The notes beneath the pieces were generated by a model. That model searched no databases. It was not told where the DNA came from and was given only the letters and a program-made list of their open reading frames with translations. A stretch of DNA of 64,000 nucleotides, taken from NCBI RefSeq assembly GCF_009914755.1, contig NC_060934.1; one strand, written 5' to 3'. Position 1 is the first letter of the stretch. The number at the start of each line of letters is the position of its first letter. The stretch comes from the human T2T-CHM13v2.0 reference genome, Homo sapiens. The translations under genes were made by a program, and so were the position numbers. This document shows, piece by piece, positions 60-52,039 of this stretch.

Positions 60-3000
60 ACTAACATTTCACTGTGTACCAGCTCATATCCCCTTTCTCT
101 TACTTCAGGGCATCACCCTAGAAATTCTTTTCTCTTTTATGTGAATATTTTCCTCGCTCCAATCTTTAAAAACCAACCTACCAACCAAACAAACAAAAAC
201 ACTTTATCTCCATATCCCTGCTTTGACTGCTAATCCAGTTCTTTGTTCCCATTTAAGAAAATTTCTTGAAATACATATAAACATAGCATTTCCAATTCCT
301 CACCTCCCATCCTCTCCCGGAGCTTTTATCCATACTGCTCTACCAAGGTCACTAGTGACCTCCGACTTCTGAAATTCAAGTTTTGATTATCACGTCTTAC
401 TTGAACATCTGTAATTATTGACACAGTTGACCACTCTTCCTCCTTGAGACATTTTCTTCACTTGGGTACTAGAACCCCATATTCTCCTAGTTTTCTTTCT
501 TTCCCATTAGCTGTTCCATCTCTGCTACTTTGGTTGGTTGGTCCTGAGCACTTCCAATAGTTCTATGTCGGCATGCTTCACAACTCAATCCTTGATCTCC
601 TCTCTTCTCTATCTATCCTTTCATCCTTGGTGATCTTCAGGTAGTCTCACAGCTTTCGATACGCTCTACATGCTGACAAATTCCAGATTTACGTTTCCAG
701 CCTGGATTTATCTTTTCAACTTCAGACATCTAGCAACCTATTTGAAAAATCCACTTGGACAAATCATACACATCACCCTAAAATATCAAAACTGAACTAC
801 TTTTTCTCTAAGCCTGTTCCTCTTACAATTTTCCCTATTTTACTAAAAAGAACTCCATCCTTCCCATTCATGAGGCTCAAAATTTCAGAATCATCCTTTT
901 CTTTTTTCTTTCACTCACATCGTATCTTGGTCCAACAGCAAATCACATTAATTCTACCTTAAAAATGTATCCAAAACCAACCTCTTGGCATTAACACTGC
1001 AGTCTAGGCCACATCTTTTGCCTGGATTATTGCAATGACTTCTGACTTATCTTCATATTTCTGCCTTTGCCTTCCTATTGCCTGTTTTCAACCTTGCAGG
1101 TATTTTATAATATAAATTAGAGGACAAAACCAACTGCTCAGAGCTCTCCAGAGGCTCCTTTTTCAGAATAAAAGGCAAATCTTTACAATGGTCTACAAGG
1201 CCCCAGACAACTTGCACCCCTTTCTCCACCTTGCGTCCCATCTCATTGCTTCCTCCTCTCCTCTGCCTTCAGAGGAGACTGTTCCAGCCACTATAACTGT
1301 CTTGCTAATTGTAACACATATCAGACAGACTTCTGCTCCAGAGCAACTGCAGTTTCTGTTTTCTCTACCCAGAATACTCCATCCTCAGATCCCACAGGGC
1401 TCACTCGTCCATCTCCTTCTCAATTGGACCTTCTCTAATCTCTTAAACTAAAATTGCAGCCCTCTGGTTTTTGTTCCCACACTCCCTAGTACCCTTTATT
1501 TGTTTAATTTTATATATATTTTTAATTTTTCCATAGGTTACTGAGGTTCAGGTGGTATTTGGTTACATGAGTAAGTTTTTTAGTGGTGATTTGTGAGATT
1601 TTGGTGTACCCATCACGCAAGCAGTATGTACTGCACCATATTTGTAGTCTTCTATCCCTCACCCCCCTCCGACTCTTCCCCCCAAGTCCCCAAAGTCCAT
1701 TGTATCATTCTTATGCCTTTGTGTCCTCATAGCTTAGCTCCCACATATCAGTGAGAACATATGATGTTTGATTTTCCATTCCTGAGTTACTTCACTTACA
1801 ATAATAGCCTCCAATCTCATCCAGGTTACTACAAATGCTGTTAAGTCACTCCTTTTTATGGCTGCATAGTATTCCATCATATATATATATATATATATAT
1901 ACATACATACATACATATCTCACAGTTTCTTTATCCACTCATTGATTGATGGGCATTTGGGTTGGTTCCATTATTTTGCAATTATGAATTGTGCTGCTAT
2001 AAACATGTGTGTGTAAGTATCTTTTTCAAGTAATGACTTCTTTTCCTCTGGTTAGATATCCAGTAGTTGGATTGCTGGAACAAATTGTAGTTCTACTTTT
2101 AGTTCTTTAAGGAATCTCCACCCTGTTTTCCATAGTGGCCGTACTAGTCTACATTCCCACCAACAGTGTAAGTGTCCCCTGTTCAGCACATCCATGCCAA
2201 CATCTACTGTTTTTTGATTTTTTTGATTATGGCTATTCTTGCAGGAGTAAGGTGGTATTGCATTGTGGTTTTGATTTGCATTTCCCTGATCATTAGTGAT
2301 GTTGAGTATGTTTTCATATGTTTGTTGCCCATTTGTATATCTTCTTTTGAGAATTGTGTATTCATATTCTTAGCCCACTTTTTGATAGGCTTGTTCGTTT
2401 TATTTCTTACTGATGTGTTTGAGTTTGTTGTAGATTCTGGATATTAGTCCTTTGTCAGATGTATAGATTTTGAAGATTTTCTCCCACTCTGTAGGTTATC
2501 TGTTTACTCTGCTGACTGTTCCTTTTGCCATGCAAAAATGATCTTTAGTTTAATTAGGTCTCAGCTATTTATCTTTGTTTTTATTGCATTTGCTTTTGGG
2601 TCCTTGGCCATGAAATCCTTGCCTAAGCCAATGTCTAGAAGGGTTTTTCCAATGTTTCTTCTAGAATTTCAGTAGTTTCAGGTCTTAGGTTTAAGCCCTT
2701 AATCCATCTTGAGTTGATTTTTGTTTAAGGTGAGAGATGAGGATCTAGTTTCATTCTCCTACATGTGGCTAGCCAATCATCCCAGCACCATTTGTTGAAA
2801 AGGATGTCCTTTCCCCACTTTATCTTTTTGTTTGCTTTCTTGAAGATCAGTTGAATGTAAGAATTTGGGTTTATTTCTGGGCTCTCCATTCTGTTCCATT
2901 GGTCTATGTGCCTTTTTTTGTGCCAGTACCACACTGTTTTTGTCACTATGGCCTTATAATGTAGTTTGAAATCAGGCCTAGTACCACTTTCTTGCCTAAT

Positions 3001-9459: not shown

Positions 9460-10394
9460 TCAATGTATCTTTTTTATATAAAACAAAACTCCACTGATAA
9501 TTATCTATTTTGTATTATGTATCTTAAGTGGTATCTTTGTGCAAATAGTATATGCTATTGAATAATTTCTTTACTACCAGAATATCCTTTATAGTTCAGT
9601 AAAAACAGAACAATTACTGCTAAAAATAGATTCTCTCAATTTGCAATTGTTTGCCCCATATTTCATATATTTACATTAAGGTTGGTTCATATTTTGTTTT
9701 TCTTGTGAGTGGCCAAATATCACAAGTACTACAGAAATGAAGATACCGTGTGACTACTTCTGCTTCTGTTCAGGAGGGACAACCCCTCCCTATGGCTTCA
9801 CACACTAAATCCCTCAACTTCCTCCTAGCATACTTCACTGGACACTGCTCCAAGTGCCAACACTCAGGACAAGTTTCTAAGGCTTCCACCTCCAGTTCAG
9901 CAATTTCCTGTTATGATGAGGTCAAAGAAAGGTTTTCTGTCCCTGTGAATCTGCAAGTTCTACTATGTCTGTTTATAACTGCAAAGTTAAAGGATGGTAA
10001 ATAAGACCGAGAATCCAATCAGATACTGTCTGTTCTTTGAAAACATTAAGTGGACATTGAACATCCCCATTGTTAAGACTGGGAAAGAGAGGCAACAAGT
10101 CAAGGTAGTGCTCCTATCACTTTATATAGTTTCTTCTATTATCAAAAAGCCTTGCAAAACCCAATTAATTCACATAGGCCACGTGAATTTGGTAGTTATT
10201 AACTCTTGAGACAAAACTTAATAACTTAGGTGAGGAAAAGGGAGCCAAAAAAAAAAAAGAGAGAGAGAGAGAGTAGTGAGAATAGCATGTGGCCAAATAT
10301 TCAACTCTGTATCTGAAAACTATGTGGGAAAAAGGAAGTCAAATATGAAAAAAAATCTCCAGCTGTTAAATGGCATAAAGAATTGTCATAATAG

Positions 10395-11267
10395 CTCCGG
10401 TCTACAGCTCCCAGCGTGAGCGACGCAGAAGACGGGTGATTTCTGCATTTCCATCTGAGGTACCGGGTTCATCTCACTAGGGAGTGCCAGACAGTGGGCG
10501 CAGGCCAGTGGGTGCGCGCACCGTGCGCGAGCCGAAGCAGGGCGAGGCATTGCCTCACCTGGGAAGCGCAAGGGGTCAGGGAGTTCCCTTTCCGAGTCAA
10601 AGAAAGGGGTGACGGACGCACCTGGAAAATCGGGTCACTCCCACCCGAATATTGCGCTTTTCAGACCGGCTTAAAAAACGGCGCACCACGAGACAATATC
10701 CCACACCTGGCTCGGAGGGTCCTACGCCCACGGAATCTCGCTGATTGCTAGCACAGCAGTCTGAGATCAAACTGCAAGGCGGCAGCGAGGCTGGGGGAGG
10801 GGCGCCCGCCATTGCCCAGGCTTGCTTAGGTAAACAAAGCAGCCGGGAAGCTCGAACTGGGTGGAGCCCACCACAGCTCCAGGAGGCCTGCCTGCCACTG
10901 TAGGCTCCACCTCTGGGGGCAGGGCACAGACAAACAAAAAGACAGCAGTAACCTCTGCAGACTTAAATGTCCCTGCCTGACAGCTTTGAAGAGAGCAGTG
11001 GTTCTCCCAGCACGCAGCTGGAGATCTGAGAACCGGCAGACTGCCTCCTCAAGTGGGTCCCTGACCCCTGACCCCCGAGCAGTCTAACTGGGAGGCACCC
11101 CCCAGCAGGGGCACACTGACACCTCACACAGCAGGGTATTCCAACAGACCTGCAGCTGAGGGTCCTGTCTGTTAGAAGGAAAACTAACAGACAGAAAGGA
11201 CATCCACACCAAAAACCCATCTGTACATCACCATCATCAAAGACCAAAAGTAGATAAAACCACAAAG
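10395..11267. promoter_or_regulatory. L1 5'UTR CpG-rich bidirectional promoter (sense and antisense); YY1 site absent
   Basis: CpG-dense L1 5'UTR beginning at (ag)ctccggtctacag. The consensus start GGGGGAGGAGCCAAGATGGCCGAATAGGAAC is missing. Confidence 0.85.
10597..10812 (-). CDS. ORF0: LINE-1 ORF0 (71 aa, antisense in the 5'UTR), intact
   Basis: ORF track MAGAPPPASLPPCSLISDCCASNQRDSVGVGPSEPG...RCVRHPFL; length and sequence match primate L1 ORF0. Confidence 0.85.
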   Translation of the reverse strand: MAGAPPPASLPPCSLISDCCASNQRDSVGVGPSEPGVGYCLVVRRFLSRSEKRNIRVGVTRFSRCVRHPFL

Positions 11268-12285
11268 ATGGGGAAAAAAACAGAACAGAAAAACTGGAAA
11301 CTCTAAAACGCAGAGTGTCTCTCCTCCTCCAAAGGAACGCAGTTCCTCACCAGCAACGGAACAAAGCTGGATGGAGAATGACTTTGATGAGCTGAGAGAA
11401 GAAGGCTTCAGACGATCAAATTACTCTGAGCTACGGGAGGACATTCAAACCAAAGGCAAAGCAGTTGAAAACTTTGAAAAAAATTTAGAAGCATGTATAA
11501 CTAGAATAACCAATACAGAGAAGTGCTTAAAGGAGCTGATGGAGCTGAAAACCAAGGCTCGAGAACTACGTGAAGAATGCAGAAGCCTGAGGAGCCGATG
11601 CGATCAACTGGAAGAAAGGGTATCAGCAATGGAAGATGAAATGAATGAAATGAAGCGAGAAGGGAAGTTTAGAGAAAAAAGAATAAAAATAAATGAGCAA
11701 AGCCTCCAAGAAATATGGGACTATGTGAAAAGACCAAATCTACGTCTGATTGGTGTACCTGAAAGTGACGGGGAGAATGGAACCAAGTTGGAAAACACTC
11801 TGCAGGATATTATCCAGGAGAACTTCCCCAATCTAGCAAGGCAGGCCAACATTCAGATTCAGGAAATACAGAGAACGCCACAAAGATACTCCTCGAGAAG
11901 AGCAACTCCAAGACACATAATTGTCAGATTCACCAAAGTTGAAATGAAGGAAAAAATGTTAAGGGCAGCCAGAGAGAAAGGTCGGGTTACCCTCAAAGGG
12001 AAGCCCATCAGACTAACAGCGTATCTTTCGGCAGAAACCCTACAAGCCAGAAGAGAGTGGGGGCCAATATTCAACATTCTTAAAGAAAAGAATTTTCAAC
12101 CCAGAATTTCATATCCAGCCAAACTAAGCTTCATAAGTGAAGGAGAAATAAAATCCTTTACAGACAAGCAAATGCTGGGAGATTTTGTCACCACCAGGCC
12201 TGCCCTAAAAGAGCTCCTGAAGGAAGCGCTAAACATGGAAAGGAACAACCGGTACCAGCCGCTGCAAAATCATGCCAAAATGTAA
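11268..12285 (+). pseudogene. ORF1: L1 ORF1 with a +1 frameshift (A7 instead of A6) at codons 3-4; open from Met35 (11371) to the stop, 304 aa
   Basis: ATG GGG AAAAAAA CAG gives MGKKTEQKNWKL* (stop ends 11306). The downstream frame retains REKG, ARR and YPAKLS motifs. Confidence 0.9.
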
Positions 12286-12321
12286 AGACCGTCGAGACTA
12301 GGAAGAAACTGCATCAACTAA

Positions 12322-16176
<3,855 letters not shown>

Positions 16177-16419
16177 ACAATGAGATCACATGGACACAGG
16201 AAGGGGAATATCACACTCTGGGGACTGTGGTGGGGTGGGGGGAGGGGGGAGGGATAGCATTGGGAGATATACCTAATGCTAGATGACAAGTTAGTGGGTG
16301 CAGCGCACCGGCATGGCACATGTATACATATGTAACTAACCTGCACAATGTGCACATGTACCCTAAAACTTAAAGTATAATAAAAAAAAATAAATAAATA
16401 AAATTAAAAAAAAAAAAAA

Positions 16420-16584
16420 GAGATTCCTTTTTTTTGAGAATAAATTTTAATTGGTTATGGTTTTTACTGAAATGAGTTGATTAGATGTGTAGAGAAACTG
16501 CTATAATTTTTCATGTTTAAGGGAAAGCCAATAAAATATATATGAGGAAAAAAATAAAAATAAAAATAAAAATTTCTACAGTGT
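16420..16584 (+). other. 3' transduced non-L1 sequence inside the L1 TSDs
   Basis: Lies between the first polyA (to 16419) and the final A25 (16585-16609), before the 3' TSD copy. Confidence 0.9.
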
Positions 16585-26999: not shown

Positions 27000-28811
<1,812 letters not shown>

Positions 28812-44796: not shown

Positions 44797-45479
44797 AACA
44801 ACAGGTGCTGGAGAGGATGTGGAGAAATAGGAACACTTTTACACTGTTGGTGGGACTGTAAACTAGTTCAACCATTGTGGAAGACAGTGTGGCGATTCCT
44901 CACAGATCTAGAACTAGAAATACCATTTGACCCAGCCATCCCATTACTGGGTATATACCTAAAGGATTATAAATCATGCTGCTATAAAGACACATGCACA
45001 CGTATGTTTATTGCGGCACTATTCACAATAGCAAAGACTTGGAACCAACCCAAGTGTCCAACAATGATAGACTGGATTAAGAAAATGTGGCACATATACA
45101 CCATGGAATACTATGCAGCCATAAAAAATGATGAGTTCATGTCCTTTGCAGGGACATGGATGAAGCTGGAAACCATCATTCTCAGCAAACTATCGCAAGG
45201 ACCAAAAACCAAACACCGCATGTTCTCACTCATAGGTGGGAATTGAACAATGAGAACACATGGACACAGGAAGGGGAACATCACACACTGGGGACTGTTG
45301 TGGGGTGGGGGGAGGGGGAAGGGAAAGCATTAGGAGATATACCTAATACTAAATGACAAGTTAATGGGTGCAGCACACCAACATGGCACATGTATACATA
45401 TGTAACAAACCTGCGCGTTGTACACACGTACCCTAGAACTTAAAGTATAATAATAATAAAATTTTAAAAAAAAGATAAA
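44797..45479 (+). mobile_element. 5'-truncated L1PA3/PA4-like LINE-1 (~680 bp)
   Basis: ORF2 C-terminus (ORF 44875..45246) plus 3'UTR. Perfect 16-bp TSD AAAAATTAGAAATGTT at 44781-44796 and 45480-45495. Confidence 0.93.
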
Positions 45480-45876
45480 AAAAATTAGAAATGTTTGTGG
45501 ATTAGAACTAAGGAGGAAGAATATAAAGGCCCATATAACCCTATTTTTGGCCATCTTTACTGAAATAAAATTGGAAAAGAAGTTTTTTTTCTACTCTTTT
45601 GACAGAAGAACTATAAAATGTATTCAAACACACTCTATGACATGAAATAATAAAACTAGAACTAAGTACATTTTCCCTCTTCTAATCCACACGTGAACAC
45701 AATTAATTTGGAATCAAGTTAGTTAAAATTCAGCCAATTCAGAGCATGAGATTGGATGATAGCTGTGAGCCCTGGATGTTAAACGCAGCTCTACCAAGGA
45801 TTTACTGTGTTTTGACTTGGGAGGTGGCTGAGGTTCATTTAAGTGCGCCATGTACCTGTTAATTTGGGGATAATAA

Positions 45877-46071
<195 letters not shown>

Positions 46072-46925: not shown

Positions 46926-47063
<138 letters not shown>

Positions 47064-48702: not shown

Positions 48703-50897
48703 TTATTATTTTTTTATTTTTTCATAAGTTATTGGGGTACAGGTCATATTTGGTTACGAGTAAGTTCTTTAGTGGTGATTTGTGAGATTTTGGTGTACCC
48801 ATCACGCAAGCAGTATGTACTGCACCATATTTGTAGTCTTCTATCCCTCACCCCCCTCCGACTCTTCCCCCCAAATCCCCAAAGCCCATTGCATCATTCG
48901 TATGCCTTTGTATCCTCATAGCTTAGCTCCCACATATCAGTGAGAACATGTGATGTTTGGTTTTCCATTCTTGAATTACTTCATTTAGAATAATAGTCTC
49001 CAATTTCATCCAGTTCCCTGCAAATGCTGTTAATTCATTCCTTTTTATGGCTGTGTAGTATTCCATCATATATATACATATATATATATACATGCCATCA
49101 TATATATATATATATACACACACACACATGCCATCATATATATATATGCCCTCATATATATATCACAGTTTCTTTATCCATTCATTGATTGATGGGCATT
49201 TGATTTGGTTCCATGATTTTGCAATTGTGAATTGTGCTTCTATAAACATGAGTATGCAAGTATCTTTTTTGAATAATGACTTCTTTTCATCTGGGTCAAA
49301 TGGTAATTCTACTTTTAGTTCTTTAAGGAATCTCCACACTGTTTTCCATAGCAGCTGTACTAGTTTACATTCCCTCCAGTAGTGTAGAAGTGTTCCCTGT
49401 TCACTCCATCCACACCAGGATCTATTGGTTTTTTGATTTTTTGATTATGGCCATTCTTGCAGGAGGGAGGTGGTATCACCTTTTGGTTTTGATTTGCATT
49501 CCCCTGACCATTAGTGAAGTTGAGCATTTTTTCATACGTTTATTGGCCATTTGTATATCTTCTTTTGAGAATTGTCTATTCATGTTTTAGCCCACTTTTC
49601 ATTGGATTATTTGTTTTTTTCTTACTGATTTGTTCGAGTTTGCTGGAGATTCTGGATATTAGTCCTTTGTCAGATGTATAGACTGTGAAGACTTTCTCCC
49701 ACTCTGTGGGTTGTCTGTTTACTCTGTTGACTGTTCCTTTCGCCATGCAAAAGCTCATCAGTTAAACTAGGTCCCAGCTATTTATCTTTGTTTTCATTGC
49801 ATTTGCTTTTGGGTTCTTGGTCATGAAATCTTTGCCTAAGCCAATGTCTAGAAGGGTTTTTCCAATGCTATCTTCTAGAATTTTAGTAGTTTCAGATCTT
49901 AGGTTTAAGTCCTTAATCCATCTTGTGTTGATTTTTGTACAAGGTGAGAGATGAGGATCCAGTTTCATTTTCCTACCTGTGGCTAGCCAATTATTCCAGC
50001 AGCATTTGTTGAAAGAGTGTCCTTTCCCCATTTTATGTTTTTGTTTGCTTTGTCAAAGATCAGTTGGCTGTAAGTATTTGGGTTCATTTCTGGGTTCTCT
50101 ATTCTGTTCCATTGGTCTATGTTCCTATTTTTGTACCAGTGCTATGCTGTTTTGGTGACTATGGTCTTATAGTATGGTTTGAAATCAGTTAGTGTGATGT
50201 CTCCAGATTTGTTCTTTTTGCTTAATCTTGCTTTGGCTATGTGGGCTCTTTTATGATTCCATATGAATTTTAGAATTTTTTTTCTAATTCTGTGAAGAAT
50301 GATGGTGGTATTTTGATAGGGATTGCATTGAATTTGGATTGCTTTGACAGTATAGTCATTTTCACAATATTGATTCTACCCACACATGAGCATGGGATGT
50401 TTGTGTCATTTGTGTCATCTATGACTTCTTTCAGCAGTGTTTTGTAGTTTTTCTGGTAGAGGTCTTTCAACTTCTTGGTTAGGTATTTTCCGAAGTTTTT
50501 GGTTTTTTGTTTGTTTGTTTGCAGCTATTGTAAAAGGGGTTGAGTTCTTGATTTGATTCTCCACTTGGTCACCATTGGTGTATAGAAGAGCTACTGATTC
50601 TTGTACATTAATCTTGTATCCAGAAACTTTGCTGAATTCTGTTATCAGTTCTAGGAGCTTCCTGGAAGAGTCCTTAGGGTTTGCCAGGAAAACGGTTATA
50701 TCGTCAGCAAACAGTGACAGTTTGACTTCCCCTTTACCGATTTGGATGCCCTTTATTTCTTTCTCTTCTCTGATTGCTCTGGCTAGGACTTCCAGTACTG
50801 CGTTGAAGAGGAGTGGTGAGAGTGGGCATCCTTATTTTGTTCCAGTTCTCAGAGGGAATGCTTTCAACTTTTCTCCATTCAGTATTATGTTGGCTGT
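48703..50897 (-). mobile_element. 5'-truncated L1PB1-like LINE-1 (~2.2 kb)
   Basis: Same 3'UTR type as 1511-2976; minus-strand ORFs between 48923 and 50470 are fragmented ORF2. Confidence 0.88.
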
Positions 50898-52039
50898 GCC
50901 TCCCTCAATTTACAATTGGCAATAAATCTGCACAGATTGCAACATACTTCAGGTTCATACACTCACTGATTGTTGTTACTCGTCAATGAAAAAGGTGAAA
51001 TATTTTGATGAGAGATGCTTAGCTCCTGTTACATTCTGATATCCAAGAACTCAGTTTATGACAAGTTGACTAAACATTGTGATTAAATTTTAATTTGAGT
51101 CTATCAATATTCATAAATAACCTTCTATTTCTCTCAAATTGTCATCTAACTGCCATCTAGCTTAAAACAACCACCCATCCCCAAAGAGGGCATAAGGGCC
51201 TTATCTCTCACTGGTTTTAATTGAAATGACACAGCTGTCAAGGCATAATTCATTATTTCAAAGAGCTATATAAGGCAAGTGATTTATTTCTTTAAGTAAC
51301 TATCTAAACTATTGATGAAACAGGGTTTCTTTTGTTTTAAATCAAATTTACATTGTCATTTCCAATTCTAATAGTAATTTTTCATTGTGAGTCACCTCAG
51401 TGTTATGCTTTGTGACTGCTTTCAAGATGTCTATTTTAAAATCCACAAGTTATCTACATCACATGTTTAGTGATGGGACAGTGTGGTGCTGGTAAACATT
51501 TGTGTGCATGCATTGTATAGATTTATCAAAGTTTGAGACAAGGTTTTCATTTAATTTTCAAAATCGGTTACAAATATATTTATATGTGAAAGATACTCAA
51601 TATAGATGTGTTGAAGGAATGGAAACTAGATTTCTAAAACCCTCCACATTCCAAAATGACTCAAAACCAGAGAAAACTGGAAACAAATAGAGTTGTCAAG
51701 AACTGAGGACCCTAAGATGTACAATTTGTGGTCTGTTTGCTTCGTGGTGAAAAAGGGAGAGCTTTGATTGGCAGGCAATAAAAGGGTAATTTTGGCCCAT
51801 GTGAGAAGCATGGGGAAAGTGAAAAGAACAGAGATTAGCAAAGGATTCTTCAGAGTTGATTTGTGGCAGTTAGCCTTGGCAGTCAGAAGCACTTAAATAA
51901 CAGAGAGGATTGGTGTTCCAAACCCCCAACCTCCACCCTGAAAATACTTCATCCCTATTCTATACTATGTTAGTTAATTTTACTATATTAAGACATAGTA
52001 GCTAAAAAGTAGTTTTCTGGTGCTCAATCGTAGTGGCTA

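What the first reader, a model, noticed from the sequence alone, without database searches (positions are those of the whole stretch)
1579..1685. 107-bp identical tract shared by two old L1PB1 copies 47 kb apart: likely ectopic gene conversion
Seen: 1579-1685 is identical base for base to 48768-48874. The adjoining ~195 nt of the same two elements differ at about 21-22 sites (~11%), and the left flanks also differ. The tract includes bases that depart from the L1PB1 consensus as I recall it (ggtgTaccc, cacGcaag, agtatGTact, tcttCtatcc, ctccGactc). At 11% divergence, 107 straight matches has probability near 1e-5 to 1e-6 per start. Inference: non-allelic gene conversion between same-orientation copies in one gene, at the G-rich 3'UTR segment. 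A crossover here would remove the 97, 140 and 90 nt exons (327 nt, 109 codons, in frame), deleting the kinase N-lobe.
Basis: partly seen in the sequence, partly recalled or inferred. Interest (0 to 1): 0.7.

Follow-up and report, generated by a model that had tools for sequence, protein, structure and literature searches.

The report
Gene-conversion patch between two old LINE-1s
Two old, broken LINE-1 repeats 47 kb apart in introns of the human PRKG1 gene share a 107-base identical patch carrying mutations seen in no other copy examined, most likely because DNA repair copied one onto the other; this is a clean case of a known process and probably has no effect on the gene.

Summary
Window 1579-1685 equals 48768-48874 exactly, while the two LINE-1 copies differ at 148 of 1,421 aligned columns overall. 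Length alone is only moderate evidence (51 of 200,000 permutations). The shared mutations are decisive. All 6 uncommon departures in the tract are shared, against 3 of 129 outside it. Two of them occur in 0 of 63 other copies, and a 23-mer carrying four of them matches only these two sites genome-wide. Other copies are more variable in these columns, not less, and the two elements are not sister copies elsewhere. Best reading: one non-allelic gene conversion (templated patch of 65-107 bp) in the L1 3'UTR. New here: a linked sub-lineage marker pair (1652C with 1703C) suggests the 48.8-kb copy was the donor (about 85%). The event is probably younger than the ape-monkey split (inferred; no orthologues or other human genomes were testable). 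The three exons between the copies total 327 nt in frame and encode the kinase N-lobe and hinge, but no such deletion was shown. Such conversion is documented for Alu, LTR and duplicated genes. A tidy new instance at long range and about 10% divergence, probably neutral.

The parts
1519..2975 (-). Copy A: 5'-truncated old LINE-1 (L1PB-like), antisense to PRKG1; likely acceptor
   Evidence: BLAST to the window's full-length L1 at 72.7%; tblastn of that L1's ORF2 hits 3015-1737 in two pieces
1579..1685 (.). Identical tract in copy A, inside the L1 3'UTR (ORF2 match ends at 1737); minimal converted core 1607-1671
1485..1500 (.). Left copy of A's target-site duplication
   Evidence: 17-column alignment with 1 gap and 1 mismatch, score 12, reached by 0 of 3,000 random window pieces
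2977..2993 (.). Right copy of A's target-site duplication
1642..1704 (-). G-rich polypurine segment of the 3'UTR, the only G4Hunter >=1.2 region in copy A; the tract's right edge lies in it
   Evidence: 25-nt windows starting 1642-1680; peak 2.16
48710..50898 (-). Copy B: 5'-truncated old LINE-1 of the same family; likely donor (carries the linked 1652C/1703C-equivalent pair)
   Evidence: its TSD is not resolved (score reached by 730 of 3,000 random pieces)
48768..48874 (.). Identical tract in copy B
28655..28751 (+). PRKG1 exon (97 nt) between the copies: start of the kinase domain, Gly-rich loop
   Evidence: hub annotation
45931..46070 (+). PRKG1 exon (140 nt) between the copies: catalytic Lys strand and helix C
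   Evidence: hub annotation
46973..47062 (+). PRKG1 exon (90 nt) between the copies: end of N-lobe and hinge
   Evidence: hub annotation

Best explanation
The 107-bp tract is identical in both LINE-1 copies and carries mutations private to them, most likely because one non-allelic gene conversion copied 65-107 bp from one copy into the other, probably from the 48.8-kb copy (B) into the 1.6-kb copy (A). Shown: identity; private shared variants; independent descent of the two copies outside the tract; A's intact target-site duplication; a single copy of the 47 kb between them. Inferred: a break or stalled fork in A's 3'UTR used the ~90%-identical copy 47 kb away as template (synthesis-dependent strand annealing or a short template switch) and returned without crossover. 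Inferred: the event is much younger than the insertions, probably within apes, because the tract has no later differences. Inferred: it is selectively neutral intronic sequence.
For: Uncommon departures (<=20% in the family): 6 of 6 shared in the tract against 3 of 129 outside (Fisher p 1.1e-8). Expected by chance: 0.51 inside against 6 seen, and 2.6 outside against 3 seen. 1617G and 1671G occur in 0 of 63 other copies; no copy carries more than 2 of the 6; the product of allele frequencies is 10^-8.7, or 10^-7.8 counting 1628/1629 as one event. A 23-mer with four of the variants, allowing 1 mismatch, has 2 matches genome-wide, both these sites. The best other copy matches at 93% (40 of 1,610 candidates scored). 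In 39 flank-picked copies the tract columns depart from the majority at 9.5% against 4.1-6.8% elsewhere, so the tract is not conserved; 1,953 other pairs never have fewer than 3 differences there. Outside the tract, B ranks 36 of 43 among A's neighbours and A ranks 28 of 43 among B's. Direction: of 63 copies, 7 are 1652C/1703C, 44 T/T, 3 T/C, 1 C/T, and 8 carry other states (Fisher p 4.5e-6, the strongest non-gap pair of 9,162 tested). B is C/C; A is the rare C/T. Negative control: the window's 94-nt run between two younger L1s is reproduced by 6 of 7 usable unrelated copies, so it is subfamily consensus.
Against: No orthologue, population or read data were available, so the pre-conversion state was not observed. 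The direction rests on essentially one marker pair: without 1703, copies with 1652C are not significantly more B-like (p 0.18); A also shares a minor allele at 2920 with B's group, and a C-to-T back-mutation at A 1703 would erase the signal. The 63 comparison copies were picked by similarity to A or B and are a small part of the family. Published Alu conversion is elevated mainly within about 10 kb (PMC8230782, PMC6598467), and 89.6% identity is at the low end of the quoted 89-100% optimum (PMC8230782).
Confidence: 0.92

Rival explanations
1. Assembly or polishing artefact in T2T-CHM13: reads from one copy overwrote the other.
For: The tract is perfectly identical and about the size of a short read; no second assembly could be checked here.
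Against: The assembly graph was built from 20-kb HiFi reads; manual curation corrected 993 small errors genome-wide; consensus accuracy is about 1 error per 10 Mb (PMC9186530 passages). The flanks differ by about 10% and each copy sits in unique sequence.
Confidence: 0.03
2. Chance plus family structure: a conserved or sub-lineage segment with recurrent mutations.
For: Run length alone has p 2.6e-4 per pair and there are many neighbouring L1 pairs. Three of the six variants recur in 13-17% of copies. One of 1,953 pairs shared 6 majority departures of any frequency in these columns.
Against: Two variants are in 0 of 63 copies; the 23-mer is unique to the pair genome-wide; the columns are hypervariable; no other pair has fewer than 3 differences; A and B are not sisters outside the tract.
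Confidence: 0.01
3. Two successive unequal crossovers (47-kb duplication, then deletion) left a hybrid patch, or an RNA/cDNA copy of the PRKG1 pre-mRNA templated the patch.
For: Either route gives the same end product. Both copies lie in one transcription unit, and cDNA-mediated conversion is described for yeast Ty and Tf2 (PMC6598467).
Against: After a duplication, the second crossover would far more likely fall in the 47 kb of perfect identity than within 107 bp of the first (inference). There is no positive sign of an RNA step.
Confidence: 0.04

Closest known systems
Alu-Alu non-allelic gene conversion (PMC8230782 passages; PMC6598467 parts 1-2, citing Aleshin and Zhi 2010)
   Same: Dispersed retrotransposon copies exchange tracts; detected by shared non-diagnostic mutations or mosaic diagnostic sites; old inactive copies can be donors.
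   Different: Here the elements are old LINE-1 copies and the distance is 47 kb, beyond the ~10-kb range of elevated Alu conversion.
NAGC between human gene duplicates (bioRxiv 10.1101/135152 passages)
   Same: Short tract: 65-107 bp here against an estimated mean of 250 bp.
   Different: Those are high-identity paralogues, and NAGC slows as duplicates diverge; here the copies differ by 10.4%.
LTR conversion on the human Y (Trombetta 2016, as summarised in PMC6598467)
   Same: Clusters of derived alleles traceable to a donor copy elsewhere.
   Different: Those were seen as polymorphisms; population status here is untested.
LINE-1-mediated rearrangements by homologous repair (PMC9675761 passages)
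   Same: Homologous L1 positions engage in repair; the paper notes that NAHR needs more than 100 bp of perfect identity, which this tract just exceeds.
   Different: Those are crossover outcomes (median L1 TEMR 4.5 kb, median similarity 93.5%); here the outcome is non-crossover, at 47 kb and 89.6%. PRKG1 has 0 mentions in that paper's main text; supplements were not examined.

Membership tests
Non-allelic gene conversion tract | Local identity well above the flanking paralogue identity | tested here: met
   107 of 107 against 10.4% mismatch overall; 51 of 200,000 permutations
Non-allelic gene conversion tract | Shared derived mutations confined to the tract and absent from other copies | tested here: met
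   6 of 6 against 3 of 129; two variants in 0 of 63; 23-mer unique to the pair
Non-allelic gene conversion tract | Non-crossover: flanks not exchanged, intervening DNA single-copy | tested here: met
   A keeps both TSD copies; the window self-BLAST shows no duplication; B's TSD is unresolved
Non-allelic gene conversion tract | Unidirectional transfer from donor to acceptor | tested here: inconclusive
   One linked marker pair favours B to A
Non-allelic gene conversion tract | Outgroup orthologue shows the acceptor's pre-conversion state | not testable with these tools
   The genome tool holds no relatives for this genome
LINE-1 | ORF2 homology, 3'UTR with A-rich tail, target-site duplication | tested here: met
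   tblastn ORF2 C-terminus 44-70% identity; T-rich end on the + strand; TSD for A
L1PB1 subfamily | Best match to the Dfam/Repbase L1PB1 3'-end consensus | not testable with these tools
   No repeat library on hand. The label is recalled; 73-74% identity to the window's young L1 and ~11% copy-to-copy divergence fit an old primate family, and sub-lineages exist among the copies
Recurrent NAHR genomic-disorder substrate | Observed deletions or duplications with breakpoints in the shared tract | not testable with these tools
   No SV catalogue available; paper searches listed none; the PRKG1 deletion in PMC6175145 is exon 3, elsewhere in the gene

The most novel reading that the evidence does not exclude
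The G-quadruplex-prone 3'UTR of long-dead, 10%-diverged LINE-1 copies is a break site that is still being patched from copies tens of kilobases away. This patch is human-specific or still polymorphic, and it has created a >100-bp perfect homology that primes PRKG1 for a recurrent 47-kb in-frame deletion of the kinase N-lobe.
Probability: 0.08. Interest if true: 0.65.

Novelty: new member of a known kind. Interest (0 to 1): 0.3.

Why it matters
It is a clean, partly orientable example showing that LINE-1 copies about 10% diverged and 47 kb apart can still exchange sequence. Cases like it would help set distance and divergence limits for conversion between old L1s, which my searches found discussed far less than Alu or segmental duplications. 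If polymorphic, it would appear as a cluster of about ten linked SNVs and could cause short-read mis-mapping. Any effect on PRKG1 is hypothetical.

Tried and rejected
Conserved segment: rejected, because the columns are more variable than the flanks. Shared source element: rejected, because A and B are not close outside the tract and sharing there is at chance level. Third donor elsewhere: none found. Local conversion hotspot: the other long runs (94 and 87 nt, 15727-16413 against 44797-45484; 816 of 20,000 permutations) are subfamily consensus. The two private bases of the 15.7-kb copy are not shared, and 6 of 7 usable unrelated copies give the same 94-nt run; 1 of 8 fetched copies was dropped because it did not align ungapped. 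Five other repeat pairs in the window had unremarkable runs (best 413 of 20,000). PRDM9 13-mer motif (recalled): no match in either copy. G4 as the cause: the right edge falls in the G-rich segment, but a random 107-bp tract would have an end there roughly 5-9% of the time (my estimate, post hoc), so this is weak. Direction from mutation load: uninformative (58 A-only against 67 B-only). Literature searches for this locus and for L1PB conversion listed nothing describing it; only listings were seen for most hits, and subscription papers are not searched. Two papers recalled on L1 ages and on L1-templated break repair were not held, so nothing is cited from them. Earlier scan findings were not available.

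Full report
Observation. Window 1579-1685 and 48768-48874 are identical and cannot be extended; it is the longest exact repeat in the window. Both stretches lie in 5'-truncated LINE-1 copies on the minus strand: A (1519-2975) and B (48710-50898), 47,189 bp apart in the same orientation. The ORF2 match ends at 1737 in A and 48926 in B, so the tract is in the 3'UTR. The copies differ at 148 of 1,421 aligned columns; the next-longest identical run is 37; 51 of 200,000 permutations reached 107. The subfamily name L1PB1 is recalled and was not tested.

Is it more than chance? Length alone is not enough at genome scale: among 1,953 pairs of other copies the longest run in 361 columns reached 98. The informative test is whether the tract shares mutations that other copies lack. 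I collected 86 non-self loci from three genome searches (each scored only its 40 best candidates), giving 63 unique copies, 24 picked by the tract and 39 by the flank. The six departures occur as follows among the 63: 1607T 11, 1617G 0, 1628G 2, 1629T 8, 1652C 10, 1671G 0. No copy carries more than two of them. Uncommon departures are shared at 6 of 6 sites inside the tract and 3 of 129 outside (p 1.1e-8). The outside figure equals chance (2.6 expected); the inside figure does not (0.51 expected). A genome-wide pattern scan with the 23-mer holding four variants and 1 mismatch allowed returned only the two sites. The tract columns are more variable than the rest in flank-picked copies (9.5% against 4.1-6.8%; the 1686-1879 figure is biased low by how those copies were picked), and no other pair has fewer than 3 differences there. 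Outside the tract, A and B are ordinary unrelated family members (ranks 36 and 28 of 43, among the 42 copies long enough to compare).

Structure of the event. A has matching target-site duplication copies on both sides (0 of 3,000 random pieces scored as well); B's is not resolved (730 of 3,000). The window shows no duplication of the intervening DNA. The patch therefore has two switch points and no net crossover. The left switch lies between 1578 and 1607 and the right between 1671 and 1686, giving a tract of 65-107 bp if the flanking mismatches predate the event (inference). The right switch lies in the G-rich segment, the only part of either copy with G4Hunter at or above 1.2; this is suggestive only.

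Direction. Among family copies, 1652 (inside the tract) and 1703 (17 bp outside) are linked: C/C 7, T/T 44, T/C 3, C/T 1, other states 8 of 63 (p 4.5e-6, the top non-gap pair of 9,162 tested). B is C/C, the natural combination; A is C/T, the rare one. This favours B as donor by roughly 10-25 to 1 (my estimate). Against: no other marker carries it independently (p 0.18 without 1703), and a back-mutation at A 1703 is possible. I put B to A at about 85%.

Age. For a given later divergence d between the two tracts, the chance of no difference in the 65-bp core is 0.46 at 1.2%, 0.13 at 3.1% and 0.013 at 6.5%. Taking those values as roughly human-chimpanzee, human-orangutan and human-macaque divergence (recalled), the event is probably younger than the ape-monkey split. 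It could be human-specific or polymorphic; this was not testable.

Mechanism. Inferred: a break or stalled fork in A's 3'UTR, strand invasion or a short template switch into B, 65-107 bp copied, and return without crossover. As context, PRKG1 is a common-fragile-site gene and CNV hotspot in HF1 fibroblasts (PMC11541566, three passages), although that study captured the middle of the gene. Rivals: assembly artefact (0.03; the assembly is HiFi-based with about 1 error per 10 Mb, PMC9186530 passages), chance or sub-lineage (0.01), and double crossover or RNA-templated patching (0.04).

Negative control. The window's next-longest runs (94 and 87 nt) join a young L1 and an older one at 93% identity. 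The young copy's two private bases in 374 nt are not shared, and 6 of 7 usable unrelated copies reproduce the 94-nt run (1 of 8 dropped as not aligned ungapped). The same test therefore separates a real patch from subfamily consensus, and there is no sign of a local hotspot.

Consequence for PRKG1. The three exons between the copies total 327 nt, and the reading frame is preserved. They encode the Gly-rich loop, the catalytic lysine strand, helix C and the hinge (motif names from my own knowledge). A crossover would thus give an in-frame, presumably kinase-dead protein. No such allele was shown. L1-mediated homologous rearrangements in three human genomes had a median similarity of 93.5%, L1 TEMRs overall had a median size of 4.5 kb, and the paper quotes more than 100 bp of perfect identity as needed for NAHR (PMC9675761 passages). 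This pair is marginal on all counts. The PRKG1 deletion reported in aortic disease is exon 3 (PMC6175145 passages).

Comparison with what is known. Non-allelic conversion between transposon copies is established for Alu and LTR elements and is elevated within about 10 kb (PMC6598467 parts 1-2 of 4; PMC8230782 passages). For gene duplicates the mean tract is about 250 bp, and the rate falls with divergence (10.1101/135152 passages). This case works like those and meets the testable defining features. It is somewhat unusual in element type, distance and divergence. Searches listed no description of this locus; I saw only listings for most hits, no supplements were read, and subscription literature is not covered.

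Verdict. A real, well-supported gene-conversion patch; a new member of a known kind; probably neutral. Interest 0.3.

Noticed in passing
window 10391-16454 (+): Full-length young L1 in sense orientation in a PRKG1 intron: 99% identical to at least 39 other copies over 374 nt, ORF2 open for 1,275 aa (12349-16176). The ORF1 frame is open for 343 codons stop to stop (11254-12285), but its first ATG is at 11371. The RefSeq enhancer 10631-11228 lies upstream of ORF1, in the 5'UTR.
   Followed up: partly
window 2671-2672 and the matching site in copy B: A and B also share a two-base departure outside the tract that none of 42 covering copies has in full. Total sharing outside the tract is at chance level, so it may be coincidence or a tiny older patch.
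   Followed up: partly
window 1624-1635: The shared 1628-1629 doublet turns the site into a 5-bp inverted repeat with a 2-nt loop, so it may be a single template-switch mutation rather than two point changes (read from the sequence).
   Followed up: no
window 15727-16413 against 44797-45484: 94-nt and 87-nt identical runs between two younger L1 copies; the 94-nt run was shown to be subfamily consensus, not conversion.
   Followed up: yes
loci L006, L010, L024, L069, L073, L074, L086: These copies share the linked 1652C/1703C pair, and several also share 2249G and 2920G, pointing to a sub-lineage within this L1 family.
   Followed up: partly
window 49065-49165: The (TA)n microsatellite at the matching position of both copies has expanded in B into a compound repeat about 54 nt longer than in A.
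   Followed up: no
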